Shown here piece after piece: positions 12,554 through 33,580 of a stretch of 41,462 bases of DNA. The number at the start of each line of letters is the position of its first letter. Positions within the stretch are counted from its first letter, which is position 1. The notes beneath the pieces are model-generated. The model did not search any database and was not told the origin of the DNA. It saw nothing but the letters and a program-made list of their open reading frames with translations. Location of the stretch: NCBI GenBank assembly GCA_001778235.1, contig MFGJ01000007.1, positions 31,116 to 72,577 on the forward strand, given 5' to 3'. This DNA comes from Candidatus Falkowbacteria bacterium RIFOXYC2_FULL_36_12 (lineage in GTDB: Bacteria > Patescibacteriota > Patescibacteriia > UBA11705). Made by a program: the position numbers and the translations under genes.

Positions 12554-13135
12554 ATGCATCTCACAGCTCAACAGAAAGAAATAGTTAACAATACAAAAAA
12601 ATTCGTAGAAAAAAGAAAGACTAGATTTCCTAAAGGCGAGGATATGCTTTCTCATAATAAAAATGTTGAAAAATTTGCCGTCGAAATATACCAGGGGTAT
12701 AAAAACATAAAAATCTTTCCGCTCATATTAGCAGCACATTTACATGATATTGGATTATCAGAATCTTCCGACCACGAAAAACACGCTGCTATAGGCTACG
12801 ATATGACAAAAAAGTATCTAAGGAAATATAATTTTATTACTAGCGACCAAATCGAATTAGTAGCATTATGCGCTCTCAATCACCGAGGAGATAAAAAAAC
12901 AAAACGCTCAATAGAGGAAAAGATAATTTCATCAGCTGCGGCGATGGATTTCATTGATCGTTCCCTTTTCTTATTTACAGAAAAATGCAAACACAATAAA
13001 TACAATGACTCTGTAGCATGGATACAAAAAATACTAAATAAAATCATGACAAGAATTGAGCTGCCTGAAGCTCGCAAAATAATCAAACCAAAATACAATG
13101 CTGCCAAAAGAATTTTTGAATTAGAAAATATTTAA
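12554..13135 (+). CDS. HD-domain phosphohydrolase-like protein
   Basis: H...AAHLHDIG...HEKHA...NH; the final motif reads AAAMD instead of ADxxD. Confidence 0.85.
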   Translation: MHLTAQQKEIVNNTKKFVEKRKTRFPKGEDMLSHNKNVEKFAVEIYQGYKNIKIFPLILAAHLHDIGLSESSDHEKHAAIGYDMTKKYLRKYNFITSDQIELVALCALNHRGDKKTKRSIEEKIISSAAAMDFIDRSLFLFTEKCKHNKYNDSVAWIQKILNKIMTRIELPEARKIIKPKYNAAKRIFELENI

Positions 13136-14281
13136 AATATTTTTTCCATATTTTTTAGTCAAGCGATGCAAATTCATTTCCATAGAACAAGCGCCGCACG
13201 ATCCACAACCAGATGTTTTGGAAAGTTTATTTGTCAACCCTTTTTTGTCCATCAGAAGGATGGCTTTTTTTGTTATTCCCAAAAACCACACAGGATTAAT
13301 TCTCTCACGATTTTCTAATGATGACCCTGGAAATGAACGCAGACACAGGAGATTTGTCGGAACGCCGATTTCAGAAAGATATCTAATGCCATCTAATGTG
13401 TCCTGTTCATTCTCCAGGCCAGCGATTAGAACTGAAAAAACCTTAACTCCATTTGCTTTGTTATAATTGAATATATTTTTATATTCATTTACTTTTATTT
13501 CAGATTTACCGGGAAGAAACTCATTTCTAAATCTATCGGAATATACTTCGAGATTTGCAGAAAAAGTATCTAGCTTTAAATTTGCCAATTTTTTCATATT
13601 TTCTAGCTCTTTAGGAGGTGAAGCCTCAATTGCGATTTTAACCTTCCCATCAAATTCACGCAGCTTTTTTAGATATGGAATGTATTTTGCTAATCCTCTA
13701 TCCAGTGAAAAATTATTTCCTCCTGTTAATAAAATCTTTGGACGTCTACCAGTTTTATTAATAACCTGTTTGTAAGCCGACAGTAATGTTGTTGGGCTCA
13801 ACATAATCTTATCCTTTTTCAAAGCACAAAAGGCGCATGCCTTTTTAACTTCCTGGTAGCAACATCCTCTTATGCTGTTTGGAATCTGGGGTATAGCAGC
13901 AATAAGAGTTTCAAAATCCATGTTCACATTCTGATTTCTAATTTTAATTTCTGGAACCAGCGACACCCTAAATAATTTTATCCCATCAAACTCGATTATT
14001 GCATGTTTTTTATTGCCAATCATTTTTATTTTTATTGGATTATCGTTGCTGATATATGAAAATGGAACTAATGCTCTCAGTTGTTTATTCCCAACATAAA
14101 GCTGTATGCCACTATTTCCAGTTCTTTTATCCTTTTTATTACTAAGATCTAATCCCAAATCCACCGATGCCCCACAGCAGACAAGATATGCACAAATTTT
14201 TACCTTATTAGCAAGACAACACGGATTTTTAAAATCCAGATTCAATTCGGAAATATATTGGTTTAATATTTTTTCTTTCAT
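13121..14281 (-). CDS. Radical SAM protein (MSMEG_0568-like)
   Basis: Cx8Cx2C (CCYQEVKKACAFC), LTGG, PGK, C-terminal GCGSCGACS. Confidence 0.8.
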   Translation of the reverse strand: MKEKILNQYISELNLDFKNPCCLANKVKICAYLVCCGASVDLGLDLSNKKDKRTGNSGIQLYVGNKQLRALVPFSYISNDNPIKIKMIGNKKHAIIEFDGIKLFRVSLVPEIKIRNQNVNMDFETLIAAIPQIPNSIRGCCYQEVKKACAFCALKKDKIMLSPTTLLSAYKQVINKTGRRPKILLTGGNNFSLDRGLAKYIPYLKKLREFDGKVKIAIEASPPKELENMKKLANLKLDTFSANLEVYSDRFRNEFLPGKSEIKVNEYKNIFNYNKANGVKVFSVLIAGLENEQDTLDGIRYLSEIGVPTNLLCLRSFPGSSLENRERINPVWFLGITKKAILLMDKKGLTNKLSKTSGCGSCGACSMEMNLHRLTKKYGKNILNIF

Positions 14282-14282
14282 A

Positions 14283-14816
14283 TTAAATATTAAATTGATG
14301 AATTGAGCAACTTGTTATTTCCGGCATTTTTTCATGCGAATCAAATAAGGTGTATAACATTTTTATAGCTGCTCCATGCGTAACAATTGCAATTTTCTTA
14401 TTCCTTATTTCTTTTAAATATTCTAATCCGTCCAGTAGTCTCAATCTAAATGTTTCAAAGCTCTCAATATCTGGCACATCAGCATCGTCAATAAGTTTTC
14501 CATCTCTAAACCACTCCGGGGTTGTCTTCATTATTTCCAATTTGCATTTTCCTTCCAAAAAACCGAAATTTCTTTCTCTAAAACAACTTGATTCATACCC
14601 CATGGAAATTCCCGAACTCATCGATAAAATTTTTGCTGTCTCTATTGCCCTTCCTAAATCACTTGATATTATTATATCAACCTTATTTTTTAATAACTTC
14701 GCCAATTCCATCGCCTGAATTTTACCAACACTAGTTAAGGGGGAATCTAGCCATCCCTGATAAATGCCTGCTCTATTCCATTCAGTTTCAGCATGCTTAA
14801 TAAGTATGATTTCCAT
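14283..14816 (-). CDS. Histidine phosphatase family protein
   Basis: KHAETEWN (variant RHG), QGWLDSPLT, SSDLGRA, RERNFG, VTHG; likely start MEIILIK at 14816. Confidence 0.9.
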   Translation of the reverse strand: MEIILIKHAETEWNRAGIYQGWLDSPLTSVGKIQAMELAKLLKNKVDIIISSDLGRAIETAKILSMSSGISMGYESSCFRERNFGFLEGKCKLEIMKTTPEWFRDGKLIDDADVPDIESFETFRLRLLDGLEYLKEIRNKKIAIVTHGAAIKMLYTLFDSHEKMPEITSCSIHQFNI

Positions 14817-14817
14817 A

Positions 14818-16002
14818 TTAAGATAATTCACCATAAAATTGTTTATCCGTATCCCCAGAGCTTATATTCACCACAATTATTTTTTTGTTATTAATCCTTG
14901 CTTGCTTTATGACCGATGCAATAGCATACCCTGTTTCTAGCGCAACAAACCTTTCCTCACTCTTAAAAAATAACTCAGCAGCATTCTTCGCTTCATTTGA
15001 TGAAAATTGATCAACCTCAATTAATCCTCGACCATGAAAATACGCAACCGGACTAGCAACAATGGTTGATCCTAGACCTCCTATATAATTACCCTTTTTT
15101 AGGCCATCAATCCCATAAGTTTTCATAAGGGGGTAATATTTGAGATTATCAATTGAAAACATTCCAATCCTCCCTTCCGACAAAATCGGACATGTAGCTG
15201 CTTCAGCAGATACAATTTTTGTCTTTCTTTTGTCATCCAATATATCTGCCAAAAATATTGCCGATGTGCCCAGGAGATTGGCTCCGCCACCACAACTGCC
15301 TATAATAATATCCGGATATTGCCCCATTGCCGATAGTTGTTCTTTAATCTCTAATCCAATAATGGATTGTGGGATAATAAAATAACCATAAACTGAACCA
15401 AATATATATCGGGCATTTTTTAATTTTTTTGTATATTCTATAGCCGCATCGGCAGATAAACTAAGGAGATCTTTTACTTTTTCATCTTTTTTTGGATTTA
15501 CAATTATAACCTCTGCACCAAATTTTTCCATCAGACTTTTTCTATCCGGCCTTTTTCTATGACTTTCATAATCCATAAAGCAAATAGTCTTAACTCCAAA
15601 TTTATTGCCCGCCATAGCCAAAGCTATTCCCCAATTACCGGTAGTTTCGGTGGTTATTGTATCAATGCCATCTTTCTTGCAAAGATATGCGATTAAAAAA
15701 GCGCTATTTGCTTTATGGTTTTTCGTTGGAGATTCTCCCTCATCTTTGATATATATTTCGCAATCTGTCCCAATCGCATGCTCAAATTTCTTCGCCCTGA
15801 AAATAGAGGTAGGCCTATATGATTCATAAACTGGCCATAACTCCTCTGGAATTTCTATATATTTATCTCTGGATAGCTCTAATTTTGCCAATGACGGAGG
15901 GATAACTTCGGAAAGAGTATCTAGGGTTATCTCTTTTCCAGAGACAGGATCATGCAGATCAACTGGACAATAATGCTTCAGATTTAAAAATTTTTTAATC
16001 AT
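14818..16002 (-). CDS. TrpB2-like PLP-dependent beta-replacement enzyme (divergent)
   Basis: YRPT, SPTKNHKANSA (PLP Lys), TETTGNWG, CGGGAN, NISSG. Confidence 0.85.
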   Translation of the reverse strand: MIKKFLNLKHYCPVDLHDPVSGKEITLDTLSEVIPPSLAKLELSRDKYIEIPEELWPVYESYRPTSIFRAKKFEHAIGTDCEIYIKDEGESPTKNHKANSAFLIAYLCKKDGIDTITTETTGNWGIALAMAGNKFGVKTICFMDYESHRKRPDRKSLMEKFGAEVIIVNPKKDEKVKDLLSLSADAAIEYTKKLKNARYIFGSVYGYFIIPQSIIGLEIKEQLSAMGQYPDIIIGSCGGGANLLGTSAIFLADILDDKRKTKIVSAEAATCPILSEGRIGMFSIDNLKYYPLMKTYGIDGLKKGNYIGGLGSTIVASPVAYFHGRGLIEVDQFSSNEAKNAAELFFKSEERFVALETGYAIASVIKQARINNKKIIVVNISSGDTDKQFYGELS

Positions 16003-16008
16003 AATTTT

Positions 16009-17325
16009 TTATATGTATTGAAAATATTTAATAACAAAATTTGAAATTTGATCTGCGCCCGCAAATCCTTTTTGATAGTTTAAAACTGATCTCTGCTTAA
16101 CCGCAAGCTTATCTAAAGCTATATCAGTAGAATATTCATTTTTAAGTAAATCCAATAGATCTCTTTGATAGCTTCCTGACTCCTCCCATTCTTCGTATTT
16201 TTTATACATCCAATGCATTTCTTCTATGCCTGATTTAAATTTTATTTTTTTAAGATCCTTCTCTTTTTCATAGATAAGAATACCTGGAAATTCGCCCCCC
16301 ATTTTTCTGTAACCAAGAACCTGAGGATACTGTGTTGAATTTTGCTCTGGAAGAAATATAATAGGAACGCCATAATGAATAGCTTCATATATGGATTTTT
16401 TTCCGGGTGCAGTTATCAGAAGAAACGTTTTCTCCATTATTTTGAGCATTTCTCTATGACTAAAGGATTTCACCTTAATGCCAGCATGCAAATTGAAAAA
16501 TTTCTTATTTTTTTTGATTCTTTCGGCAATTTCAGGATGAACAACAATAATAAATTTCTTGTCTTTATATAATTCATTAATGACTGGGCTTATAAACTTA
16601 GCAATCATCTTTACGTATATATCTAAATCAGCATTATCATTAACTGGATTTTTCATTCCATTAAGATTAATCAAGATATAATCCTTTTTTATCTTTTTAT
16701 TTTTTACCACCGATAAATCTAAAACTGGACTTATTTCCGAAAATTTATTCTTACCTCCAAGGATATCACCCAGTCGAAAAATTCTTTTTTCAGTTCCAGG
16801 AAATTTTTCGTTAATATACGGGAATTTTTCCAAAAAGGAGTGCAGGGAACATTTATTAGACAACAACTGAGATTCGTGTGGCGTTAGGCCTGATTTTTCC
16901 AGCCTGGAAATTTTCTCTAAATAATTACCACCTTTTAATATGTGTTCCATTATTTGACTGTATTTATCATAATTTTTCTTATCTTTTGTCAGCAACCAAA
17001 ACCAAAAATTCGTATCAATATTAATAACTGGAATACAACAATCGTATCCAAAAATAGAGATGTATGGATTGCCACAAGAAATAATCAAATCAAATTTTTT
17101 ATCAATATTTGAAATTCCTTTTATATCTGTCTCTATTATTTTATCAGAATCAAATAACTCTTTATAATTTTTGAAAAAATGCGTAACATTTCCCCACCCC
17201 ACAAGATAATTATCAGATTTAAATCCCTTCCTCTTTAGATTTTTAAGAATATACGCTATGGTAGCTTGCGACCCAAAACCAAAATGCTGAGCCGAAAACA
17301 ATATTTTTGGAATTAATTTTTTCAT
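16009..17325 (-). CDS. GT-B glycosyltransferase-like protein, resembles cytosylglucuronate (CGA) synthase-related family
   Basis: N-terminal AQHFGFGS; C-terminal TAPGKKSIYEA...PIIFLPEQNSTQ; terminal GADQI. Confidence 0.6.
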   Translation of the reverse strand: MKKLIPKILFSAQHFGFGSQATIAYILKNLKRKGFKSDNYLVGWGNVTHFFKNYKELFDSDKIIETDIKGISNIDKKFDLIISCGNPYISIFGYDCCIPVINIDTNFWFWLLTKDKKNYDKYSQIMEHILKGGNYLEKISRLEKSGLTPHESQLLSNKCSLHSFLEKFPYINEKFPGTEKRIFRLGDILGGKNKFSEISPVLDLSVVKNKKIKKDYILINLNGMKNPVNDNADLDIYVKMIAKFISPVINELYKDKKFIIVVHPEIAERIKKNKKFFNLHAGIKVKSFSHREMLKIMEKTFLLITAPGKKSIYEAIHYGVPIIFLPEQNSTQYPQVLGYRKMGGEFPGILIYEKEKDLKKIKFKSGIEEMHWMYKKYEEWEESGSYQRDLLDLLKNEYSTDIALDKLAVKQRSVLNYQKGFAGADQISNFVIKYFQYI

Positions 17326-17332
17326 AACAGCT

Positions 17333-18364
17333 TTACTTTATAGGACTTGAATATTTTAAATTATTTGTAGTCGCAATGGATACACCTGCATGCAACATCA
17401 TAGGACAATATTTGCAGAAATCCATTCTATTTTTCCGGTATTCTTGCATTTCTTCTCCTTTCCATATGCCTAAAATAGATTCTTTGCGCACATTTCCCAC
17501 AATCGGCTTATGCGTATACTCAGACCCATTACATGGAAGCACATCTCCGTTTGGATAAATCAATAGAAACACATTTGGCCGATTGCATTTTTTGTGTATA
17601 ACTTTTTTCTCCCAATATACCCCATCATAAAACTTACTTTTTGCACTTTTTTTATTACCATAAAATCCACTCAAATTCAAAAGACTTTTTCTATCCAAAA
17701 CGATGTTGTCTTGTTTTTTACGATTATGGTAATCCTTGATTGCCTGTGGCAATATTTCATCCCTGAAAATTTTCAGATCTTTTTTACTCAACAAAAGATA
17801 TTTTTCCGAGTAATCATTCTCCGGGTAATTCAAGCTAAGCGAAGACGCATTAACATCAAACGAGTATGCAATAAAATCACTGAGTCTTTTATAATTATGC
17901 TTATTTACGACAATATGAACAACCAGCCTGACTTTACTTTTTCCTATTAATATTGCAGCGGCATTGGCATATTTAAAACTTCCGCGCCTTCCTCTAATGC
18001 GATCATGCTCTTTTCCATTCGTGCTATATAAAGAGAGCTTGATCTGATCAAGTCCAGACTTTTCTATTTTGTGCAGCAAAGGTCTATCCAGGAAACGGCC
18101 ATTTGTATTTAACGAAACAAAGAAACCCATCTTTTTCGCCTCATAAATCAGCTCTGTTAATTTTTCATAATGAGTTGGCTCACCGCCTGATATTGTAAGA
18201 TAAAAAACTCCCATGTCCCTTGCTTCCTTAAAAACTTTTTTCCATTCAGTTAATGAAATCTCGCTATTGCGCGAATTTAAAATTTGCTTCCTGCTGATGC
18301 AAAATGGGCAATTATGGTCGCAATATCCAGTAGGCTTGATAGTTAGGTGTTTTAATTTTCTCAT
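17333..18364 (-). CDS. Radical SAM protein with SPASM/twitch domain
   Basis: CDHNCPFC, ISGGEP, TNG, HDRIRG; C...IYPNGDVLPC...GNVR...IW...CKYCP. Confidence 0.93.
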   Translation of the reverse strand: MRKLKHLTIKPTGYCDHNCPFCISRKQILNSRNSEISLTEWKKVFKEARDMGVFYLTISGGEPTHYEKLTELIYEAKKMGFFVSLNTNGRFLDRPLLHKIEKSGLDQIKLSLYSTNGKEHDRIRGRRGSFKYANAAAILIGKSKVRLVVHIVVNKHNYKRLSDFIAYSFDVNASSLSLNYPENDYSEKYLLLSKKDLKIFRDEILPQAIKDYHNRKKQDNIVLDRKSLLNLSGFYGNKKSAKSKFYDGVYWEKKVIHKKCNRPNVFLLIYPNGDVLPCNGSEYTHKPIVGNVRKESILGIWKGEEMQEYRKNRMDFCKYCPMMLHAGVSIATTNNLKYSSPIK

Positions 18365-18373
18365 ATTTTTAAA

Positions 18374-20287
18374 CTAATCATTATGCCACCGATATTCTTC
18401 TTTGAGTATATTCTTGGGATTATTGTTGGTTAAAATTTTGTAAATTTTTCGAGACATAGTATCCGCTGAAATAAGTTTTAATTTGTCGGTTTTACAAAAG
18501 TTGTAAAAAAATCCGTCATCTTCTATCTTTTTAATTTTATTTATTGATTCAACAATTTTTGATTTTTTATATTTTGACGACAATATTTTAATTATATTAT
18601 TATCTTCCAGATAATCAAAATGTTGCAATATATCATAATCAACCTCTGATATTTCTTTTATTTTAGAGCTGCCTATGTCCATAACGAAAAATTTATCTTC
18701 TTCGTTGAAAGTAAAATAGCGATATTTTGAATCTGGCACCCTCAGCTTATCAAAAAATTTAATTTTGGAGTCCAAGAAACCTAAGTATTTATCAACTCTT
18801 TCCCTGATTTTATATGTTTCTCCCTTAATCTTTTCCTCATTTATCTCGCCGTTTTTTATCCAGATAATACTTTCTTTGGTAAAATTTGCGTATATATCAG
18901 TTAATTTTTTGAGTAATTTCTCATACTCTTCTCTGCCAGCTAACGACTTTTTATTTTTTATACCATTAATAACCCAGTGTCTATTTTTATTAATAATATC
19001 AATCCACTCCACAAAAATAATTTTTATCGCCATGTATGCCTTTGCAACATCCTTGTCCACATAATAATCATGGTAACCATCCATTACATTATTGTGAATA
19101 ATCTTTTTCTCATTTTCCAACATTTTTTGCAGGCTTGCCCCATCATGCACCTTTAATGCCTTATGAATATCAGTGCCATAACTTTTTATCTTTTCCAGGA
19201 ATTCTATGTCTTTCAAAATGGAATCCAATGTTGAATATGGATTAAATAGTATGGCAGCGGGGAAAACGGAGATCTCCAACTTTTTAAGTTTCCTGATAGC
19301 CTCCTTTATTTGCCCCGAACTTACTTGCTTGTTGAATTTTTTTAAAGTGTAATCATCTAATGTTTCCATTCCTACTAATAATCTTTCGAATCCGGCCTTT
19401 TTCATCTTTATTACTACATCTTCTCGAATATCGTCTGCTCTGCACAAGGCCATTAGATGTAATTTAAGCCCTCTTTTTATTATTAAATCACTAATTCCAA
19501 TCACGCGATCAATTCCTGCTTGTCCCGGCCCAAATAGCTCATCGTCTTGGAACTTTATAACTGAAACTCCAAATGTTTTATTTAGATATTCTAATTCATC
19601 AACCACATTTTCTGGCGATCTCCCTCTCCAACAGGAACCTACATTTATCCTATTAAACGAATTCTGGCTACAAAAAGTACAACTTCCGTAGCAACCCCTA
19701 CTTGAAAAGAAACAAGCATACCCAATACGCTTCATCGAATGCAACAGGAGATCCCTAGCGGGAAAAGGTATGGAATCAAGATTGCTTATTTTTTCTCTTG
19801 GCTTATTGAAATACAATAATCCGTTCTTTTTTCTATACGCCAGCCCCTTTATTTTTGCTAATGTTTTTTTCTCAAATATACGCTCTACAAGCTCAAGTAA
19901 TGTATCCTCTCCTTCCCCTAAAACAATTGAATCTAGTTGATCAATGGCATCAAACAAAGATCTCGGCGAAAGGGTTGGCGTTATGCCACCAAAACAAAGA
20001 TGAAAATTTTTATCTTTGTTTGTAACAAGATTTACTATGGTTTTTATCGTAGGCAACGCCCGCTGCGTCACGGAAAATCCCAATATTTTGAATTTTTTCA
20101 TTTTTATTATTTCTGCGGTCTGATTTGCGCTTAAACCAAACATGTCGGCATCCATTATGTCGACCGAATAACCATTTTTTCGCAAAACTGCTGCCAAATA
20201 CAAAATTCCAAGTGGCTCTTTAGGATCTTGATCTCCAAATCTCGTGGTCTTATAAATGGGGGGGTGAACCAATAGTATATCTGCCAT
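18374..20287 (-). CDS. Cobalamin-binding radical SAM protein with C-terminal RRE/winged-helix-like domain
   Basis: EPLGILYLAAVL, GGITPT, GEGE, SRGCYGSCTFC, RSPENVVDE, FQDD, GMET. Confidence 0.92.
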   Translation of the reverse strand: MADILLVHPPIYKTTRFGDQDPKEPLGILYLAAVLRKNGYSVDIMDADMFGLSANQTAEIIKMKKFKILGFSVTQRALPTIKTIVNLVTNKDKNFHLCFGGITPTLSPRSLFDAIDQLDSIVLGEGEDTLLELVERIFEKKTLAKIKGLAYRKKNGLLYFNKPREKISNLDSIPFPARDLLLHSMKRIGYACFFSSRGCYGSCTFCSQNSFNRINVGSCWRGRSPENVVDELEYLNKTFGVSVIKFQDDELFGPGQAGIDRVIGISDLIIKRGLKLHLMALCRADDIREDVVIKMKKAGFERLLVGMETLDDYTLKKFNKQVSSGQIKEAIRKLKKLEISVFPAAILFNPYSTLDSILKDIEFLEKIKSYGTDIHKALKVHDGASLQKMLENEKKIIHNNVMDGYHDYYVDKDVAKAYMAIKIIFVEWIDIINKNRHWVINGIKNKKSLAGREEYEKLLKKLTDIYANFTKESIIWIKNGEINEEKIKGETYKIRERVDKYLGFLDSKIKFFDKLRVPDSKYRYFTFNEEDKFFVMDIGSSKIKEISEVDYDILQHFDYLEDNNIIKILSSKYKKSKIVESINKIKKIEDDGFFYNFCKTDKLKLISADTMSRKIYKILTNNNPKNILKEEYRWHND

Positions 20288-20294
20288 AATTTAT

Positions 20295-21332
20295 TTAAAA
20301 TCCTTTAACTTGTAACTTGGAGCCAACTTCCTTGATCCATGACTTTTTGCAATCACATTTAAAAGCCAGGACAGCATCCGTAATTATACGCACATTTTTT
20401 TGATGCCGATTGATATCATTGAGATAATTCCTTATTTTATTTGAACAAGTGCAAATTTTTCCAGATTCGTCATAATTCGAAGGAACGGATATTGTTTCCA
20501 CATTATCCTTATAATTTCCCAAAATAATTTTAAAATCATATTTCTGCTCCTTTCTTATTTTGTCCAAAATTTCAATTGACTTGGCTATGCTATATAGCCA
20601 GATAGGTTTAAACTCATTTCTAAAATAAGGAATCTTAGCAATAAAAGAATTTTCCGCAACAAAAAATGGCTGGACCGCAACCACAAGACTGCTTGGTTTA
20701 TTTTTCATTAAACACACCAAATCCTTTACGCTTTTTGCCAAGTCCACAATTGATTCATATTCGCTCATATCAACGGGAGGTTTCAATAAAAGATAAGCTT
20801 GAAATCCCACTCCTTCTTTCTGTAACACATCGATAGCCTTGATGAATCTTTTTTTTGTAAATCCCTTTGCGGTCTTTCTCCTTATTTCATCGCTCATTGT
20901 TTCTAGGCCAACAGCGATAAATAATTTTTTTGGATCAATATATTTTGTTAAGTCTTTTATGTTTTTTGAATTGATAAATTCAGGTCTCGTTTCCAAAACT
21001 ATTTCCTTAATGGAATCTCGATTCAAGGTCTTTACAATCTCCTGACGCGAATTTGCCGAAACCTCACAATCATCAAAAAAACTTCCAGAACTATAAACCT
21101 CAACCCTTGAAATGCTTTTTGTATAATTTTTTTCGAAAAAATCCAAAAAATAACCCCCAACTTTTTGGGGTTCAATTGGTTTTTCCCAATTTATAAAGCC
21201 ACAGTATACGCATCTTTTTCCTTTTCGAACGCTAATACAAGGCACTGTGTTGATGCCTATTTTCCATCGGAGCCCATTTTCATATGGTTCCTTCAGATTT
21301 AGGGTTATTTTCGACTTATTTTTGAATTTCAT
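20295..21332 (-). CDS. Radical SAM protein, RaSEA/TIGR01210-like
   Basis: Cx8Cx2C (CISVRKGKRCVYC), YSSGSFFD, ETRPEFI, AVGLET, KGFT, YLLLKPP, PIWLYS. Confidence 0.82.
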   Translation of the reverse strand: MKFKNKSKITLNLKEPYENGLRWKIGINTVPCISVRKGKRCVYCGFINWEKPIEPQKVGGYFLDFFEKNYTKSISRVEVYSSGSFFDDCEVSANSRQEIVKTLNRDSIKEIVLETRPEFINSKNIKDLTKYIDPKKLFIAVGLETMSDEIRRKTAKGFTKKRFIKAIDVLQKEGVGFQAYLLLKPPVDMSEYESIVDLAKSVKDLVCLMKNKPSSLVVAVQPFFVAENSFIAKIPYFRNEFKPIWLYSIAKSIEILDKIRKEQKYDFKIILGNYKDNVETISVPSNYDESGKICTCSNKIRNYLNDINRHQKNVRIITDAVLAFKCDCKKSWIKEVGSKLQVKGF

Positions 21333-21363
21333 CGATGCGTATTACATATTTAAACTTCGATTA

Positions 21364-21392
21364 ACCGTAGCACTTTATGAATAAAAAATCAA
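21364..21392 (-). promoter_or_regulatory. Candidate promoter of radical SAM operon
   Basis: Minus strand TTGATT, 17 bp, TGn-TACGGT. Confidence 0.4.
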
Positions 21393-21507
21393 TTACAAGT
21401 AGAAACGCACAACATTATTTGGCGAGATAAACTATGTGTCTGCCTGCGGTTCGACTGAACTCGCCGAATGTCCGTTAGACAGATAGCTAATTTGTTATTT
21501 ATTGAAA

Positions 21508-22179
21508 CTATTTTCCTCTGACTACAACTACGAATTCACCTTTTTGTTTTTCAATGACTTGTTCAATAACTTCGGAAAGTGTTCCACGATAGATTGTTTC
21601 AAATTTCTTGGTAAGCTCACGGCCAACAATGATTTGTCTTGAATCGTCAATAAAATCTTTCATTTCTGCCAATGTTTTTATCACTCTGTGTGGTGAGTCG
21701 TAATAAATTGTAGTTATTTTTGAATCATTTATTTGCTGAAATATTTTTGTTTTGCCCTTGTGAGGCATGAAACCAAGAAATAAAAATTTATCGGTCGGAA
21801 AACCTGAAGCACTCAAAATAGTTGTGACAGCACTGGCTCCTGGAATGGGAATTACTTCAATATTGTTTTTTATTGCAAGCTCAACAATTTTGCCACCTGG
21901 ATCTGAAATTCCTGGGGTACCAGCATCAGAAATGTAAGCAATGTTTTTTCCTTGTAATAATGATTCTCCAATTAATCTTTCAATTTTTTCATCTGATGAA
22001 TGCTGGTGCAAACCAATTGTTTTCTTTTTTATATCAAAATGAGACAGTAATTTTGCAGACTGCCTGGTATCTTCACACCAAATAACATCAACACTTTCCA
22101 AGGTTTCCTTGGCTCTAAAGGTTAAATCAGAAAGATTACCGATTGGTGTGGCAACTATGTATAAAATTCCATTTTCCAT
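21508..22179 (-). CDS. rsmI: 16S rRNA C1402 2'-O-methyltransferase
   Basis: LYIVATPIGNL, CEDTR, SDAGTPGISDPG, RELTKKFE. Confidence 0.96.
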   Translation of the reverse strand: MENGILYIVATPIGNLSDLTFRAKETLESVDVIWCEDTRQSAKLLSHFDIKKKTIGLHQHSSDEKIERLIGESLLQGKNIAYISDAGTPGISDPGGKIVELAIKNNIEVIPIPGASAVTTILSASGFPTDKFLFLGFMPHKGKTKIFQQINDSKITTIYYDSPHRVIKTLAEMKDFIDDSRQIIVGRELTKKFETIYRGTLSEVIEQVIEKQKGEFVVVVRGK

Positions 22180-22253
22180 ATAGCTAAACTATAACAGAAT
22201 AATATAAATAAAACAAGTTTTTGCCCAGTTTTAGTATAATAAATTAGCACCTA

Positions 22254-22282
22254 TTGACATTTATTAATGAATATGCTATAAT
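22254..22282 (+). promoter_or_regulatory. Perfect-consensus sigma70 promoter
   Basis: TTGACA, 17 bp, TGn-TATAAT. Confidence 0.8.
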
Positions 22283-22288
22283 TGTTAG

Positions 22289-22777
22289 TTGTAAATTAAA
22301 AAAAGGCAATTTCGCATCACAACCAAGAACATAAGTACGAGGTAAAAATGCGGAAGAGGCTCTAGGACCGTCAAGGAAACGAAGAACGACTTGGCGGGAT
22401 CAGGCTGAAGCAGACAGTGAAGAAGACACTGCTGAAGCCTAAAGGTTCTTCACCCCTCAATCCCAAGTGTCCACAACCCTTCAAAATGTGGGCAAAAATG
22501 GGAGATGAGGGTCGTCAGCTGAAATGCTGATCTCGTCGGCAGGAACATATTTATGTTACCTGGCCGTTAACCCATTTGCAGTGGCTCTTTCATCTCCCTA
22601 GCTGAGGCTAAGGAGAAAAAGGAAACTTCGTGGAGCGTCATAGTTAACCACCCCGGGAATAGGAATTAGGGCGCCCGGCCAGTGGAAAACCCGAGAAAAT
22701 CTCGGGCAGAAAATTGGGATAGCTAACAAAGCGATTCCCTTAGGTCCTCCCCCCGTCGCAAGTGTCGGGGTTTTTTT
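22289..22777 (+). ncRNA. Candidate large structured non-coding RNA of unknown class
   Basis: No ORF of 60 aa or more in any frame; GC-elevated; about seven consecutive helical domains; possible closing stem AGGACC/GGTCCT; own promoter and terminator. Confidence 0.65.
22751..22777 (+). terminator. Intrinsic terminator
   Basis: CCCCG...CGGGG followed by T7. Confidence 0.7.
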
Positions 22778-22871
22778 ATTTTTTAAATTAGAAGGCTACA
22801 ATGAGTTGACAATTTTATCAAATTGATGTATTGTACCTAGTTATGCATTCACCCACAGGCAGGAGGATCAA

Positions 22872-23384
22872 ATGCAGTTTATTGGAGTTTTTGTGGCAAT
22901 TGTAACGGTGATTGCTGTAATTATTGCAATTTTGTATTCTGTTGGAGTGATGCTTATTGGTATCTTGTTGCCGGCGATTGTTTTAATTTTGATCGGTGGC
23001 GGTTTGGCGCTTTACTTTTTCGAAAAGAATAAAACCGGGTCGGCTGTATCGGTGATTTTGGCAACACTTTTGTTGGGGGCAATTTATTACACCAGCGATG
23101 CAAGTACACATAACTTGGGTAAGGTATTAAGTTGCGCAATGCCTGATAATTTTATGGTGTGTCCTTTGTCAAACCAGCTTAAGGTGGAAATTAGATGCAG
23201 ATGGGAGATGAGATGTAAACAGGTAGCTGACCATATCTATACTATCTCGGGTAAGTCTCAACAGGAATTGTACGAATGGGCTCTGCATACCTGTTCTAAA
23301 AGAGTGGGTTACCCACCGTTTGATGCGTATCTAAATTGTCTTGATCGGGCGATGAATCAAGATGATTATAATCGTTGCCAGTGA
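22872..23384 (+). CDS. Orphan membrane protein with Cys-rich C-terminal domain
   Basis: Promoter TTGACA-17-TATTGT (22806-22834), AGGAGG at 22861; about 3 TM helices then 7 Cys. Confidence 0.75.
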   Translation: MQFIGVFVAIVTVIAVIIAILYSVGVMLIGILLPAIVLILIGGGLALYFFEKNKTGSAVSVILATLLLGAIYYTSDASTHNLGKVLSCAMPDNFMVCPLSNQLKVEIRCRWEMRCKQVADHIYTISGKSQQELYEWALHTCSKRVGYPPFDAYLNCLDRAMNQDDYNRCQ

Positions 23385-23425
23385 GACTATTAGAGTTTAT
23401 TTGAGGAGAAAAACTTCATTGGATA

Positions 23426-23454
23426 TTGACAATTATCTTGCGCTATGATATAAT
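23426..23454 (+). promoter_or_regulatory. Perfect-consensus sigma70 promoter
   Basis: TTGACA, 17 bp, TGn-TATAAT. Confidence 0.8.
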
Positions 23455-23460
23455 ATAAAC

Positions 23461-23657
23461 TCGTATGGTCCTGACGGAAGGACCATACAGATTCTCATAC
23501 AATGTCTTGGAAGACTCGAAACACTGAAGGAGGACGCAATGAGGCGTGGATGGTGAGCCAAAAGCCCAAAGCCATCCAGTTCAAGCTCAAAGCTTGGACC
23601 ATGCCAACAACAAATGTTAATATAGACCCCCCGACATGTCGGAGGGTCGTTTATTTT
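23461..23657 (+). ncRNA. Candidate ~200 nt structured RNA
   Basis: GTATGGTCCT/AGGACCATAC hairpin at predicted +1, TGGATGG/CCATCCA, TCAAGC/GCTTGG, terminator GACCCCCCGAC/GTCGGAGGGTC with T-rich tail. Confidence 0.5.
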
Positions 23658-23687
23658 AAAAATGTTATTTTCTGTTATAATAGCTTT

Positions 23688-24542
23688 ATGAAGTCTGCAA
23701 GAAATAAAACTATCTACATCAACCCAACTGAAATTAAATCTTTTCAAGATTTTGAGTTATTACCAAAAGAAATAAATGCGCGTGATTTACAAAATAAAAT
23801 TTATCTAACAAACTCAATAATCGCTTTAGCAAAAATACCTTCTGGTTCAATTGATCTAATTGTTGCAGATCCACCCTATAATATTAATAAAAATTTTGGT
23901 CGAGGATCAATAAAATTACCTGAAGCTGATTTTCGCGATTGGTGTGATAATTGGATTGAACAATGTGCAAGAATACTGAAACCAACCGGATCAATTTACA
24001 TCTGCATTGATTGGGTCAGCTCTGGGATGATCCAAAACATCTTATCAAAATATTTTTTTGTCAGAAATAGAATTACTTGGAAACGAGAAAAAGGCCGAGG
24101 GTCAAAAAATAACTGGAAAAATAATATGGAAGACATCTGGTTCGCGACTAAGTCAGATAATTATACTTTTAACTTGGATGCTGTGAAGGAAAAGAAAAAA
24201 GTCCTAGCGCCATATGTTGATAAATTTGGTGAAGCAAAAGACTGGACTGAAAAAAATGGTGAGAAATTCCGAATGACTCACCCATCAAATATTTGGGTTG
24301 ATCAGGTTGTGCCCTTCTGGTCGATGCCTGAAAATACTGAACATCCGACACAAAAGCCGGAAAAATTGATTGAACGAATAATCCTAGCATCATCTGATGA
24401 AAAAGATTTGGTTTTTGACCCTTTTCTAGGTTCTGGAACAACTGCGGTCGTGGCAAAAAAACTGGGACGAAAATATTGTGGGTTTGAAATTGAAAAAAAG
24501 TTTTATATAATTGCCTGGAAAAGATTAAAAAAAACTGTTTGA
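23688..24542 (+). CDS. Site-specific DNA methyltransferase (N4-C/N6-A, beta class), orphan
   Basis: DPPY precedes HPTQKP and DPFLGSGTT; likely start MKSARNK at 23688. Confidence 0.92.
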   Translation: MKSARNKTIYINPTEIKSFQDFELLPKEINARDLQNKIYLTNSIIALAKIPSGSIDLIVADPPYNINKNFGRGSIKLPEADFRDWCDNWIEQCARILKPTGSIYICIDWVSSGMIQNILSKYFFVRNRITWKREKGRGSKNNWKNNMEDIWFATKSDNYTFNLDAVKEKKKVLAPYVDKFGEAKDWTEKNGEKFRMTHPSNIWVDQVVPFWSMPENTEHPTQKPEKLIERIILASSDEKDLVFDPFLGSGTTAVVAKKLGRKYCGFEIEKKFYIIAWKRLKKTV

Positions 24543-24554
24543 TTAAACAGTTTT
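24531..24554. terminator. Bidirectional hairpin between convergent genes
   Basis: AAAACTGTTT-GATT-AAACAGTTTT. Confidence 0.55.
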
Positions 24555-24949
24555 CAAGATTCAGACTCCCCATTCATCATTTTTAGATAATGACTATAAC
24601 CGATAAAGACCTCCAGCATCTTTTGAATGTCCACAACCTCAAAAGTCTCAATGAGATAAAGCTCCAAATCTTCAAGAAAAATATTAAAATTATATCTCGC
24701 ACCTACTTGATCCTGACAGCTGACAACCATTTTTGTTTTATCTTCAGAAGGATAAATATCATTGGCCATGGATAATAGATCAGATTCAACAGGTCTTGGG
24801 GTTGGACAAATTACCCCTCTAAGAACGAAAGGACCTGGTGTCAGAGAAAAACCAAAAATCGATCCCTTGATATTCTTCAATCTTCTTATCTCAACTACAG
24901 TACCTGCTGGTAGATTCAGAAAATCCTCAAAATTTTCAACTCTTTTCAT
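24554..24949 (-). CDS. Orphan protein (131 aa)
   Basis: Promoter TTGACA(25014)-17-TAATAT, SD CAGGAGGG, then ATG 24949. Confidence 0.7.
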   Translation of the reverse strand: MKRVENFEDFLNLPAGTVVEIRRLKNIKGSIFGFSLTPGPFVLRGVICPTPRPVESDLLSMANDIYPSEDKTKMVVSCQDQVGARYNFNIFLEDLELYLIETFEVVDIQKMLEVFIGYSHYLKMMNGESES

Positions 24950-25120
24950 GTTGGCTTCCCTCCTGGTTTGCCACTGGGAAAATTTATATTAACAATAATT
25001 AATAAAAATGTCAAATACACTTCGATAATTCGATCACGCACTAGAAACAAGTTTAAGTGCATGGGAAGAAGGCTCAATGCAGGCGAAATTCAGAGTGAAA
25101 AGTGAGTGGTGGTTGATTAT

Positions 25121-28385: not shown

Positions 28386-28414
28386 TTGACTTTTTATCGA
28401 ATATATGCTATAAT
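28386..28414 (+). promoter_or_regulatory. Sigma70 promoter of GC-rich cassette
   Basis: TTGACT, 17 bp, TGn-TATAAT. Confidence 0.75.
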
Positions 28415-28504
28415 TATAAGAAGTACCTAGACAACTGAACGGCCGCTTTAGGCGGACATGCACCCCACAGCATTGGAGCTTTAGGCTCCAGGAGGGTAAT
28501 TATC

Positions 28505-28984
28505 ATGACGACGAGCTACGACTACTACTTCGCCAACATCCGAAAAGAGGGCGAGAAGTTCTTCGAGAACTATGGTCCCGAGGAGCACATGAGCCTCAAG
28601 GAAAGCATCCTTAGGGAGACATCGGAACAAGGATCAGAAGGGGCTCTGAACGCACTCCAGCTCAAGGTGCTGGAGGTGCTCACGAGCTTCGCGAAGATGA
28701 TCTTGTTCGGCTGGCTGACCGAGGTGAACATCAGCGCCCCGGCCAAGATCGAGAACGAGTACTTCGTCTCGGTCGAGTTCAAGCTCCGCAACCGCGAGAA
28801 AAGCAACTTCGCCAGGATCTACCTGGTAGAGAGGTGGCAAAACACCTTCTACGCGCAGGCCATCGTGGCCGAGATCCCCACCCACCCCGAGACCCAGGTG
28901 TTCAAGCTCCTCGTCCATGACAAGGGGAGCGACGAGTTCACCTTCCGCGCGCTCGAGCACACGGATCGGAAGTGGAGCTTCTAG
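28505..28984 (+). CDS. GC-rich orphan protein (159 aa)
   Basis: CAGGAGGG SD; codons overwhelmingly end in G/C, unlike flanking genes. Confidence 0.8.
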   Translation: MTTSYDYYFANIRKEGEKFFENYGPEEHMSLKESILRETSEQGSEGALNALQLKVLEVLTSFAKMILFGWLTEVNISAPAKIENEYFVSVEFKLRNREKSNFARIYLVERWQNTFYAQAIVAEIPTHPETQVFKLLVHDKGSDEFTFRALEHTDRKWSF

Positions 28985-29240
28985 CTCCGGTCCGCGCACC
29001 CACAACGAGACAAGCCTGTCTCAAATCACACGAACAAATAAAAGTTGATTATGCAATGCATGGTCAGCTTTTCAGTTTAAATAATGAAAGATTGAAATAT
29101 TGTGAAATAAAATTGGAAATAGATGGAAATACAGTTGTAAATAAATTGAAATATGTTGTAAATAACCTTGATTGACATTTTGATAAAAACCGATTAAAAT
29201 AAAGTCTTAATTGTTCCTCATACAGCAGGAGGGCGGGAAA

Positions 29241-31827: not shown

Positions 31828-31922
31828 AAGCGAGAAAAGCGAGGTCAGTAAATAAAGCAAGTAAAGCTGTGATTTAATTTATGTTGTATTTACTGCACTT
31901 GCTGAACAGGCTGTACTTGCTT
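31828..31922. repeat. Third 9-nt-unit inverted repeat
   Basis: agcgagaaa agcgaggtc agtaaataa agcaagtaa agc ... gtatttact gcacttgct gaacaggct gtacttgct. Confidence 0.7.
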
Positions 31923-33498: not shown

Positions 33499-33509
33499 AT
33501 TTTTGAAAT

Positions 33510-33580
33510 GAGTTCAGCAAGTTCAGCGAGAAAAGCTAGTAAAGTTTTTGACCGTACTTGCTGGACTTGCTGTATTTACT
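33510..33580. repeat. Fourth 9-nt-unit inverted repeat
   Basis: gagttc agcaagttc agcgagaaa agctagtaa ... gtacttgct ggacttgct gtatttact. Confidence 0.7.

What the first reader, a model, noticed from the sequence alone, without database searches (positions are those of the whole stretch)
22254..22777. Large, multi-domain non-coding RNA candidate with perfect promoter and terminator
Seen: TTGACA-17-TGnTATAAT, ~490 nt with no ORF of 60 aa or more, then CCCCG/CGGGG-T7. By-eye pairings: closing stem AGGACC(22364)/GGTCCT(22743); GAAGAAC(22381)/GTTCTTC(22445) enclosing AGGCT/AGCCT; CCCTCA-TCCCA-CCACA with TGTGG-TGGGA-TGAGGG (22452-22512); TCAGC/GCTGA; CGGC-AGG-AACATA with TATGTT-CCT-GCCG; GTTAAC/GTTAAC enclosing TCTCCCTAGC/GCTAAGGAGA; CCGGG/CCCGG; CCCGAGA/TCTCGGG. 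The helices follow each other with almost no linker, like a multiway junction. I see no hallmark of RNase P, tmRNA, SRP or group I/II introns. Inferred: a highly expressed structured RNA of possibly undescribed class.
Basis: partly seen in the sequence, partly recalled or inferred. Interest (0 to 1): 0.8.

Follow-up and report, generated by a model that had tools for sequence, protein, structure and literature searches.

The report
Orphan 490-base structured RNA gene
A small groundwater bacterium carries a strongly promoted, protein-free, hairpin-rich RNA gene of about 490 bases that matches no known RNA family and no relative searched, so it looks real but its job cannot yet be worked out.

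Summary
Window 22254-22282 is a 12/12 sigma-70 promoter with a TG extension. No start-codon ORF in the unit exceeds 43 aa. It ends in a CCCCG/CGGGG hairpin followed by T7. The RNA folds far better than shuffles: z -4.5 for all 488 nt and -5.7 for the 385-nt core. Same-length neighbour mRNAs give z +0.6 and -0.2.

It matches no Rfam family. RNase P RNA and tmRNA lie elsewhere in the genome. It shows no coding signal.

It is a single-copy orphan. BLAST, nhmmer and two covariance models found no real match in up to 400 genomes of the class, 58 metagenome loci, or phage and plasmid collections. The same BLAST found the genome's RNase P RNA in 27 of 40 relatives. Covariation therefore cannot be tested, and expression evidence is one ambiguous 176-nt contig.

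The unit sits in a slot between two conserved genes. Each relative fills that slot with different content: other ORF-free RNAs, a tRNA, or small genes.

Best reading: a lineage-specific stand-alone structured ncRNA of unknown function. The scan has noted this kind before, on other DNA.

The parts
22254..22282 (+). Sigma-70-type promoter: -35 TTGACA, 17-nt spacer with TG extension, -10 TATAAT. The predicted start is near 22289-22290.
   Evidence: 12/12, TG yes. It is one of 37 matches to this strict pattern in the 1.09-Mb genome, and others drive a tRNA operon and small genes.
22290..22777 (+). Predicted ~488-nt non-coding transcript, 48% GC in a 35% GC genome
   Evidence: No ORF above 43 aa, no Pfam hit and no period-3 signal.
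22310..22355 (+). 5' hairpin. It encloses an SD-like GAGGT (22339-22343). A 5-codon mini-ORF (ATG 22348 to TAG 22365) starts in its 3' arm.
   Evidence: -11.5 kcal/mol, z -4.19; sequence.
22364..22748 (+). Core closed by AGGACC (22364-22369) / GGTCCT (22743-22748), with about eight helices branching from it
   Evidence: -145.1 kcal/mol, z -5.70, and the MFE is nearly equal to the centroid (-143.5).
22454..22511 (+). Longest hairpin: CCCTCA-TCCCA-TGTCCACA with its partner, containing one U-G pair
   Evidence: -28.0 kcal/mol, z -5.25.
22537..22566 (+). Hairpin CGGCAGGAACAT / ATGTTACCTGGCCG
   Evidence: -12.4 kcal/mol, z -4.13.
22575..22686 (+). Least certain part of the fold. It contains the TCTCCCTAGC/GCTAAGGAGA hairpin and CCGGG/CCCGG.
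   Evidence: z -0.44 for the whole stretch. The minimum-energy folds differ here.
22690..22706 (+). Hairpin CCCGAGA-AAA-TCTCGGG
   Evidence: A nearly coincident stretch has z -4.42.
22751..22777 (+). Intrinsic terminator: CCCCG / CGGGG stem followed by T7
   Evidence: A weak anti-hemB alignment covers only this terminator.
22806..22834 (+). Second, weaker promoter-like site (TTGACA-17-TATTGT, 10/12) between the terminator and the next gene
22872..23384 (+). Downstream orphan gene P0001: 170 aa, hydrophobic N-terminal part, Cys-rich C-terminal part. It shares the variable slot with the RNA.
   Evidence: No real homologue in 400 genomes of the class.
21508..22179 (-). Divergent conserved neighbour: PF00590 methylase-fold protein, the left anchor of the variable slot
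   Evidence: 63-71% identical in relatives.
23502..24542 (+). Conserved N6/N4 DNA methylase gene, the right anchor of the variable slot
   Evidence: 61-68% identical in relatives.

Best explanation
This is a stand-alone gene for a non-coding RNA of about 490 nt. A near-perfect sigma-70 promoter starts transcription near 22290, and an intrinsic terminator stops it at 22777.

The RNA is predicted to fold into a 5' hairpin plus a core closed by the 22364/22743 stem. Tight hairpins separated by short A-rich linkers branch from that core.

The gene is lineage-specific. It occupies a slot between two conserved, divergently transcribed genes, and every relative examined fills that slot with different content.

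The promoter, terminator, lack of coding capacity, excess folding and orphan status are shown. It is inferred that the RNA is made, is stable, and acts in trans as a folded RNA. A protein-binding or scaffold role seems more likely than antisense pairing. Its target and function are unknown.
For: Transcription signals:
- Promoter 12/12 with TG. The same promoter type drives a tRNA operon and small genes in this genome.
- Terminator hairpin plus T7.

No coding signal:
- Longest start-codon ORF is 43 aa.
- 0 of 5 frame peptides reach a Pfam cut-off.
- 28 six-frame peptides give no tblastn hit below E 0.4 outside the locus.
- Period-3 GC power is 3.1, against 51 for a GC-rich gene 6 kb away.

Excess folding:
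- z -4.47 for the full RNA and -5.70 for the core.
- Same-length controls give +0.56, -0.17 and -3.01.
- 8 of 10 segments have z <= -2.8.

Strand and composition:
- The + strand fold scores -145.1 kcal/mol against -129.3 when mirrored on the - strand, with 10 G-U among 119 pairs.
- GC is 48% in a 35% GC genome.

Independence from the next gene: a separate 10/12 promoter lies between the terminator and that gene.

Not antisense: no outlying complementarity to 484 predicted gene starts. The four neighbouring gene starts scored rank 60, 251, 252 and 337.
Against: - No homologue was found anywhere, so there is no covariation and no evidence of purifying selection: 0 of 40 relatives, 0 real of 25 other genomes of the order, and 0 real of 400 genomes of the class.
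- Two single-sequence covariance models found 0 of 100 relatives each. Their best scores on 16 syntenic loci with filters off were only 14.1 and 11.1 bits.
- The same BLAST finds the genome's RNase P RNA in 27 of 40 relatives. This RNA is therefore not conserved the way a core RNA is.
- All contigs laid from 4 runs are identical, so strains add no information.
- A GC-rich protein gene in the window also folds well (z -3.0). Excess folding is thus not unique to RNA genes here.
- The - strand folds almost as well (z -4.37).
- The 112-nt stretch 22575-22686 folds no better than shuffles.
- Transcription has not been shown.
Confidence: 0.5

Rival explanations
1. It is a transcribed but functionless or very young unit. 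It could be a leftover or a proto-gene of the strongly promoted, GC-rich, orphan 'promoter-body-terminator' islets common in this genome and phylum, and the RNA fold has no dedicated role.
For: - The RNA and the adjacent gene P0001 are both orphans and share one GC-elevated 1.2-kb slot.
- The slot content differs in every relative and shows no similarity to the window's.
- The genome holds other orphan ORF-free units, such as C6:59044-59664, which was found in 0 of 40 relatives.
- 17 of 18 long GC-rich ORF-free gaps have no Rfam match.
- GC-rich orphan protein genes sit behind the same promoter type.
Against: - There is no residual coding periodicity (3.1 against 51) and no translated similarity to anything, so a decayed gene is unlikely.
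- z -5.7, with most individual hairpins significant on their own, is hard to obtain without selection for folding.
- In a 35% GC genome, 48% GC should erode unless the unit is recent or under selection. This is an inference.
Confidence: 0.25
2. It is a long cis-acting 5' leader of the downstream gene P0001. Read-through of the terminator at 22751-22777 would be controlled by a ligand, a protein, or translation of the SD-preceded mini-ORFs. The first mini-ORF is the 5-codon one at 22348-22365. The second follows AAGGAG at 22612-22617, with a GTG start at 22630.
For: - It is on the same strand as P0001, and its terminator ends 95 nt before that gene's start codon.
- Two strong SD-like sequences are each followed by a start codon and a 5-codon ORF.
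- There are alternative pairings, such as GGGAGATGA (22500) with TCATCTCCC (22590), 9/9 complementary.
Against: - A 10/12 promoter lies between the terminator and P0001.
- No riboswitch, T-box or leader family matches, even at E<=10.
- About 490 nt is several times the size of known attenuators (general knowledge).
- A 9-nt perfect complement is expected about 0.45 times by chance in 488 nt (own arithmetic).
- P0001 has no homologues, so association with the leader cannot be tested.
Confidence: 0.1
3. It is a DNA-level element: folded-DNA recombination sites or cassette boundaries of the integron-like arrays, or a REP/BIME-like hairpin repeat cluster. Earlier scan notes report both in this genome.
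For: - The hairpins are nearly as stable on the - strand.
- Earlier notes e1-1024986, e1-1345942 and e1-1323263 report hairpin cassettes and mosaic repeats in this genome.
- A DNA methylase gene lies nearby.
Against: - It is single-copy. No hairpin recurs in the genome by blastn with word size 7 or by nhmmer.
- There are no internal repeat units.
- None of the 38 ORFs of the 41-kb window scanned against Pfam matches a recombinase, transposase or integrase family.
- A promoter and a terminator bracket the hairpins precisely.
Confidence: 0.05
4. It is a highly divergent version of a universal RNA that was not located in this genome, namely SRP RNA or 6S RNA.
For: Neither small nor large bacterial SRP RNA nor 6S RNA was found in the 99.8%-complete genome.
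Against: - No SRP or 6S model touches the candidate, even at E<=10 with permissive filters.
- The fold is a multi-hairpin junction rather than a rod. Size and shape expectations for SRP and 6S RNA are recalled.
- A universal RNA should be detectable in relatives, as RNase P RNA is (27 of 40). This one is found in 0 of 40.
Confidence: 0.03

Closest known systems
Generic bacterial stand-alone small or large ncRNA gene (own sigma-70 promoter, structured body, Rho-independent terminator)
   Same: A consensus promoter, a hairpin-rich body without an ORF, and an intrinsic terminator, sitting between protein genes.
   Different: At about 490 nt it is far longer than typical base-pairing sRNAs (recalled). 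No Hfq- or CsrA-type partner is known here: CsrA was not found. No target complementarity stands out. It is confined to one species-level lineage.
Large 'ornate' bacterial RNAs found as long GC-rich intergenic regions in AT-rich genomes (OLE, ROOL, GOLLD, raiA). For the discovery approach (PMC6429828, PMC11109978, PMC8723152) I saw only the search listing and the start of each abstract.
   Same: It is a long, GC-enriched, ORF-free intergenic region in an AT-rich genome. Its gap ranks 7th of 191 ORF-free gaps of 200 nt or more by length times GC excess. The predicted fold is elaborate.
   Different: No match to any of these Rfam models, even at E<=10. Those families are defined by many members with covariation, and this one has a single member.
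Other orphan promoter-to-terminator RNAs noted by this scan in the same genome (e1-1032625, e1-1032624) and in other Patescibacteria (e1-2116925, e1-766194)
   Same: The same recipe: a consensus promoter, a GC-rich hairpin-dense body, a terminator, and no or few relatives. In e1-2116925 the position and promoter are kept but not the sequence, as here.
   Different: No sequence similarity to the units of this genome that I compared. Those notes are unchecked AI notes.
Phage 'morons' and horizontally acquired single-gene islets
   Same: An autonomous unit with its own promoter and terminator and atypical GC, lying in a variable slot between conserved genes.
   Different: It carries no protein gene. 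There is no match in 50,697 phage or 72,556 plasmid records, and no mobility gene in the window.

Membership tests
Any Rfam 15 family (4227 models) | Covariance-model score at or above the family's gathering threshold | tested here: not met
   0 matches in the whole window at gathering thresholds. At E<=10 on 22150-22900 there were only 3 chance-level matches; the best was 14.4 bits against a threshold of 37.
RNase P RNA (RF00010) | Match to the model, with one gene per genome | tested here: not met
   The genome's RNase P RNA lies at C1:11382-11713 (71 bits, E 5.9e-22). The candidate has no match.
tmRNA (RF00023) | tRNA-like ends and a tag reading frame | tested here: not met
   ARAGORN finds no tmRNA or tRNA in the window. 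The genome's tmRNA lies at C7:170999-171388 (133.8 bits).
SRP RNA (RF00169, RF01854) | Match to an SRP model | tested here: not met
   No SRP match on the candidate at E<=10.
SRP RNA (RF00169, RF01854) | The genome's SRP RNA is accounted for elsewhere, which would exclude the candidate by elimination | tested here: inconclusive
   Neither model finds anything in the genome. A short-motif scan of my own also found nothing convincing.
6S RNA (RF00013) | Match to the model, and a rod of about 180-200 nt with a central bubble | tested here: not met
   No match on the candidate or in the genome. The predicted fold is a multi-hairpin junction.
OLE / ROOL / GOLLD / raiA / HEARO large RNAs | Match to the family's covariance model | tested here: not met
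   Searches show no match. That these families are in Rfam is recalled.
CsrB/RsmZ-type protein-sponge RNA | A CsrA/RsmA partner encoded in the genome | tested here: not met
   PF02599 was not found in the own genome, while the control genomes gave hits.
Stand-alone bacterial ncRNA gene | Own promoter and own intrinsic terminator | tested here: met
Stand-alone bacterial ncRNA gene | No protein-coding capacity | tested here: met
Stand-alone bacterial ncRNA gene | A discrete transcript is observed | tested here: inconclusive
   One 176-nt contig (22520-22695), and nothing else on 21000-24000, in a run labelled metatranscriptomic but marked 'probably DNA'.
Stand-alone bacterial ncRNA gene | Structure supported by covariation among homologues | not testable with these tools
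   No homologue was found.
Riboswitch or attenuator leader | A known aptamer or leader fold directly upstream of the regulated gene, with competing terminator and antiterminator | tested here: inconclusive
   No family match. A separate promoter lies before the gene. Alternative pairings are at chance level.
Integron-like cassette boundary / REP-like repeat | Multiple copies in the genome, or a recombinase nearby | tested here: not met
   Single copy. No recombinase family among the 38 window ORFs scanned against Pfam.

The most novel reading that the evidence does not exclude
The RNA is functional. It is one instance of a phylum-wide, fast-turnover population of strongly expressed, GC-rich, hairpin-dense RNAs that ultra-small Patescibacteria keep in variable slots between conserved genes. 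That would be an undescribed kind of lineage-specific large RNA, whose sequences are replaced faster than proteins diverge. Such RNAs might serve as protein-binding scaffolds or decoys in the symbiont's dealings with its host or its phages.
Probability: 0.2. Interest if true: 0.65.

Novelty: new member of a known kind. Interest (0 to 1): 0.35.

Why it matters
If the RNA is real and functional, a 1.09-Mb genome is spending a top-strength promoter on a 490-nt RNA that no relative shares. This same genome also holds several other orphan RNA units and many GC-rich intergenic regions with no known RNA family.

Together these would suggest that ultra-small bacteria carry a sizeable, rapidly changing set of non-coding RNAs that family-based annotation cannot see. 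On its own, this single-member case cannot be tested by comparative methods, and it adds one more example to a pattern the scan has already recorded.

Tried and rejected
Homologue searches, all empty or at chance level:
- BLAST in 40 relatives.
- BLAST in the 25 other genomes of the order. The two hits (E 0.002-0.003) lie inside ORFs of 644 and 415 codons.
- BLAST in 400 genomes of the class. The one hit (E 6e-4) lies inside a 571-codon ORF.
- nhmmer and short-word blastn on 9 syntenic loci and on 58 metagenome loci anchored on the methylase gene. The best anchor identity was 72%, so no same-genus genome was available.
- Distant blastn against phages and plasmids.
- Five exact-pattern scans of hairpin arms: 2 of genome contigs and 3 of viral contigs.
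- Two single-sequence covariance models, on 16 loci with filters off and on 100 relatives each.

Expression:
- No holder on record as RNA was listed among 12 runs from 6 studies.
- The parts of 21000-24000 without cover in run X11 say nothing either way.
- All contigs of the 4 runs laid were identical to the window, so there was no strain variation to exploit.

Pseudogene test:
- No Pfam hit and no translated similarity.
- 104 ORF peptides from nine relatives' slots against the window's slot gave a best E of 0.023.
- No codon periodicity.

Other tests:
- Antisense targets: duplex energies against 484 predicted gene starts gave a best z of -3.2, and the neighbours did not stand out. The method allows unrealistically long loops and is weak.
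- CsrB-like sponge: CsrA is absent, and GGA motifs occur at about the expected number by my own by-eye count.
- Dispersed repeat or array: single copy, with no internal repeat units.
- Shared motifs with other orphan units of this genome and of the relatives' slots: none.
- Cluster look-up of the flanking proteins gave only 99%-identical strain variants and no names.

Literature and scan notes:
- Three searches listed no paper on such RNAs in Patescibacteria. I saw only listings and the starts of abstracts, and supplements were not consulted.
- Scan-note look-ups by place and by sequence found nothing for this stretch.

Full report
**What is there.**
- Promoter: TTGACA at 22254, a 17-nt spacer ending in TG, and TATAAT ending at 22282. 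The scanner scores it 12/12 with TG, one of only two such sites in 21000-25000. Promoter-like sites overall are no more frequent than in shuffles (12 found, 12.0 expected), so the quality of this site is what counts, not the number of sites.
- Body: about 490 nt in which the longest start-codon ORF is 43 aa. The longest stop-to-stop frames are 65 aa (- strand) and 60 aa (+ strand, running past the terminator).
- Terminator: CCCCG (22751-22755) / CGGGG (22766-22770) followed by seven T. The scanner missed it because the loop exceeds its 8-nt limit. Folded alone it gives -10.0 kcal/mol.
- Composition: 48% GC in a genome of 35%.

**Is the folding more than chance?**
- The 488-nt RNA folds at -171.5 kcal/mol, against -139.5 ± 7.2 for dinucleotide shuffles (z -4.47, 0 of 100 as good).
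- The 385-nt core closed by AGGACC/GGTCCT folds at -145.1 (z -5.70), and its minimum-energy and centroid structures nearly coincide.
- Same-length controls from the window:

| Control | z |
|---|---|
| Upstream methylase mRNA | +0.56 |
| Downstream P0001 mRNA | -0.17 |
| GC-rich protein gene at 28505 | -3.01 |

- Taken one by one, 8 of 10 segments have z <= -2.8. The 112-nt stretch 22575-22686 does not (z -0.44), so that third of the 'multi-domain' drawing is unreliable.
GAAGAAC/GTTCTTC and GTTAAC/GTTAAC are not. The former would compete with, or pseudoknot onto, the GTCAAG/CTTGGC helix.
- The - strand folds almost as well (z -4.37). The + strand structure loses 16 kcal/mol when mirrored, because 10 of its 119 pairs are G-U. 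That favours the + strand only mildly; the promoter and terminator decide the strand.

**What it is not.**
- No Rfam family reaches threshold in the window. A permissive scan of the region at E<=10 gives three chance-level alignments, one of them to the terminator alone.
- ARAGORN finds no tRNA or tmRNA.
- The genome (1.09 Mb, 8 contigs, 99.8% complete) has its RNase P RNA at C1:11382 and its tmRNA at C7:170999.
- SRP RNA and 6S RNA were not found anywhere in the genome. A 'divergent SRP or 6S RNA' reading therefore cannot be excluded by elimination. But no such model touches the candidate, and a universal RNA should be visible in relatives.
- It is not coding. Five frame peptides have no Pfam match above cut-off. 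28 six-frame peptides have no tblastn match below E 0.4 outside the locus. The period-3 GC signal is 3.1, against 51 for the GC-rich gene at 28505-28984.
- It is not a repeat. It is single-copy by BLAST, short-word blastn and nhmmer, with no internal repeat units.
- None of the 38 ORFs of the 41-kb window scanned against Pfam matches a recombinase, reverse transcriptase, Cas or transposon family. The surroundings are ATP synthase, tRNA synthetases, glycolysis and a radical-SAM cluster.

**Orphan status.**

| Search | Result |
|---|---|
| BLAST, 40 relatives | 0 hits |
| BLAST, 25 other genomes of the order | 2 marginal hits, both inside long ORFs |
| BLAST, 400 genomes of the class | 1 marginal hit, inside a 571-codon ORF |
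| nhmmer and blastn, 9 syntenic loci | 0 |
| nhmmer and blastn, 58 metagenome loci anchored on the neighbouring methylase | 0 |
| Distant blastn, phage and plasmid collections | 0 |
| Five exact-pattern scans | 0 |
| Two single-sequence covariance models (171 and 176 positions), 16 syntenic loci, filters off | best 14.1 and 11.1 bits |
| The same two models, 100 relatives each | 0 of 100 |

- As a positive control, the same BLAST with the genome's own RNase P RNA finds 27 of 40 relatives, including 24 of the 25 other genomes of the order.
- The candidate is therefore truly lineage-specific, or it evolves far faster than a core RNA.
- The best metagenome anchor is 72% identical in protein, so no same-genus genome exists in the collections. 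The four runs laid carry only identical copies. Covariation cannot be tested.

**Context.**
- The RNA lies between a conserved PF00590 methylase-fold gene (21508-22179, - strand) and a conserved DNA methylase gene (23502-24542). Both anchors, and translin and YceG beyond them, are syntenic in relatives.
- The interval between the two anchors is different in every genome examined:
  - G001: an ORF-free unit of about 260 nt.
  - G005: four small promoter-to-terminator units.
  - G002: a 1.6-kb stretch of 55-63% GC.
  - One metagenome locus (L025): a GC-rich stretch of about 1 kb.
  - Another locus (L022): a tRNA.
  - G003 and G004: protein genes.
- Most of these stand behind a strong promoter at a similar distance from the methylase gene.
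- None resembles the window's content in DNA or in translation.
- The downstream 170-aa gene P0001, which shares the slot, is also an orphan, with 0 real hits in 400 genomes of the class.

**Within the genome.**
- The strict promoter pattern occurs 37 times. It drives a tRNA operon, small GC-rich genes, and at least one other ORF-free unit (C6:59044-59664, 621 nt), itself found in 0 of 40 relatives.
- 17 of 18 long GC-rich ORF-free gaps have no Rfam match.
- Earlier scan notes, which are unchecked, call the organism a groundwater Candidatus Falkowbacteria. They describe two further orphan RNA units in this genome and many in other Patescibacteria. The scan has therefore seen this kind before, on other DNA.

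**How it most likely works.**
- Shown: a top-quality promoter, a terminator, no coding capacity, excess folding, and orphan status.
- Inferred: the unit is transcribed into a stable RNA whose ends are tucked into helices, and it acts in trans.
- Antisense action has no support. No complementarity to 484 predicted gene starts stands out, and the neighbours rank 60th or lower. This was a crude test.
- A CsrB-like sponge is excluded by the lack of CsrA.
- A cis-leader role for P0001 is possible. The RNA is on the same strand, its terminator ends 95 nt before the gene's start codon, and it holds two SD-preceded 5-codon mini-ORFs. Against this stand an intervening 10/12 promoter, the size of the RNA, and the lack of any leader-family match.
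- A functionless young or decaying islet cannot be excluded, because nothing shows purifying selection. The absence of codon periodicity argues against a decayed gene, and the hairpin statistics argue for selection on folding.

**Expression.** Twelve runs from six studies hold the stretch: 11 are labelled groundwater and 1 soil, and several may be the source of the assembly itself. In one run labelled metatranscriptomic, but marked by the tool as probably DNA, the only contig on 21000-24000 is a 176-nt piece lying wholly inside the RNA (22520-22695). This is at most a weak hint.

**Verdict.** This is a credible but unverifiable single-member RNA gene, an orphan member of the known kind 'stand-alone bacterial ncRNA gene', in a hypervariable slot. 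Interest is moderate to low for the element alone. The wider pattern of strongly promoted orphan GC-rich RNAs in these genomes is the more interesting thread.

Noticed in passing
window 22180-23501, with loci L013-L026: The interval between the conserved methylase-fold gene and the conserved DNA methylase gene is a hypervariable slot. Each relative holds different content: ORF-free GC-rich units of 260 nt to 1.6 kb, a tRNA, or small protein genes. The content usually sits behind a strong promoter at a similar distance from the methylase gene.
   Followed up: partly
own genome C6:59009-59664 (locus L085:245-865): A second orphan unit: a consensus promoter, 621 nt without an ORF above 42 aa, and a terminator. 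It has no Rfam match and was found in 0 of 40 relatives by BLAST.
   Followed up: partly
own genome (whole): Small and large bacterial SRP RNA and 6S RNA were not found by their Rfam models in a 99.8%-complete genome. The RNase P RNA scores only 71 bits, below the family cut-off of 100.
   Followed up: partly
own genome, 18 long GC-rich ORF-free gaps (loci L085-L102): Only one of the 18 gaps is explained by Rfam (the 23S 3' end plus 5S). The other 17 have no credible match at E<=0.01.
   Followed up: partly
window 28387-28990: An orphan 159-aa gene with GC3 of 0.88 in a 35% GC genome. It has a TTGACT-17-TGCTATAAT promoter and an AGGAGG ribosome-binding site, and its mRNA folds with z -3.0.
   Followed up: partly
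L015:2325-3645 / L016:290-1950 (relative G002): About 1.6 kb of 55-63% GC sequence behind a consensus promoter, with only short overlapping ORFs and an internally repeated module (CCCCCACC...TGGAGGTG...GGGGGCAGA, seen twice). It has no Rfam match.
   Followed up: no
window 22339-22365 and 22612-22647: Two strong Shine-Dalgarno-like sequences inside the RNA (GAGGT and AAGGAG). Each is followed by a start codon and a 5-codon ORF (MRKRL and MERHS by my reading).
   Followed up: no
window 13121-21332: A run of four radical-SAM genes on the - strand, one with a SPASM domain and one with a B12-binding domain, together with a PLP enzyme, a glycosyltransferase and a histidine phosphatase. It looks like a small modification or biosynthesis cluster.
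   Followed up: no
window 31921-35144: Two tandem paralogues of cofactor-independent phosphoglycerate mutase, 525 and 522 aa.
   Followed up: no
L013:2555-2680 (relative G005): One of the four small units in that relative's slot has a ribosome-binding site and a short ORF running into its terminator. It may be a small-peptide gene rather than an RNA.
   Followed up: no
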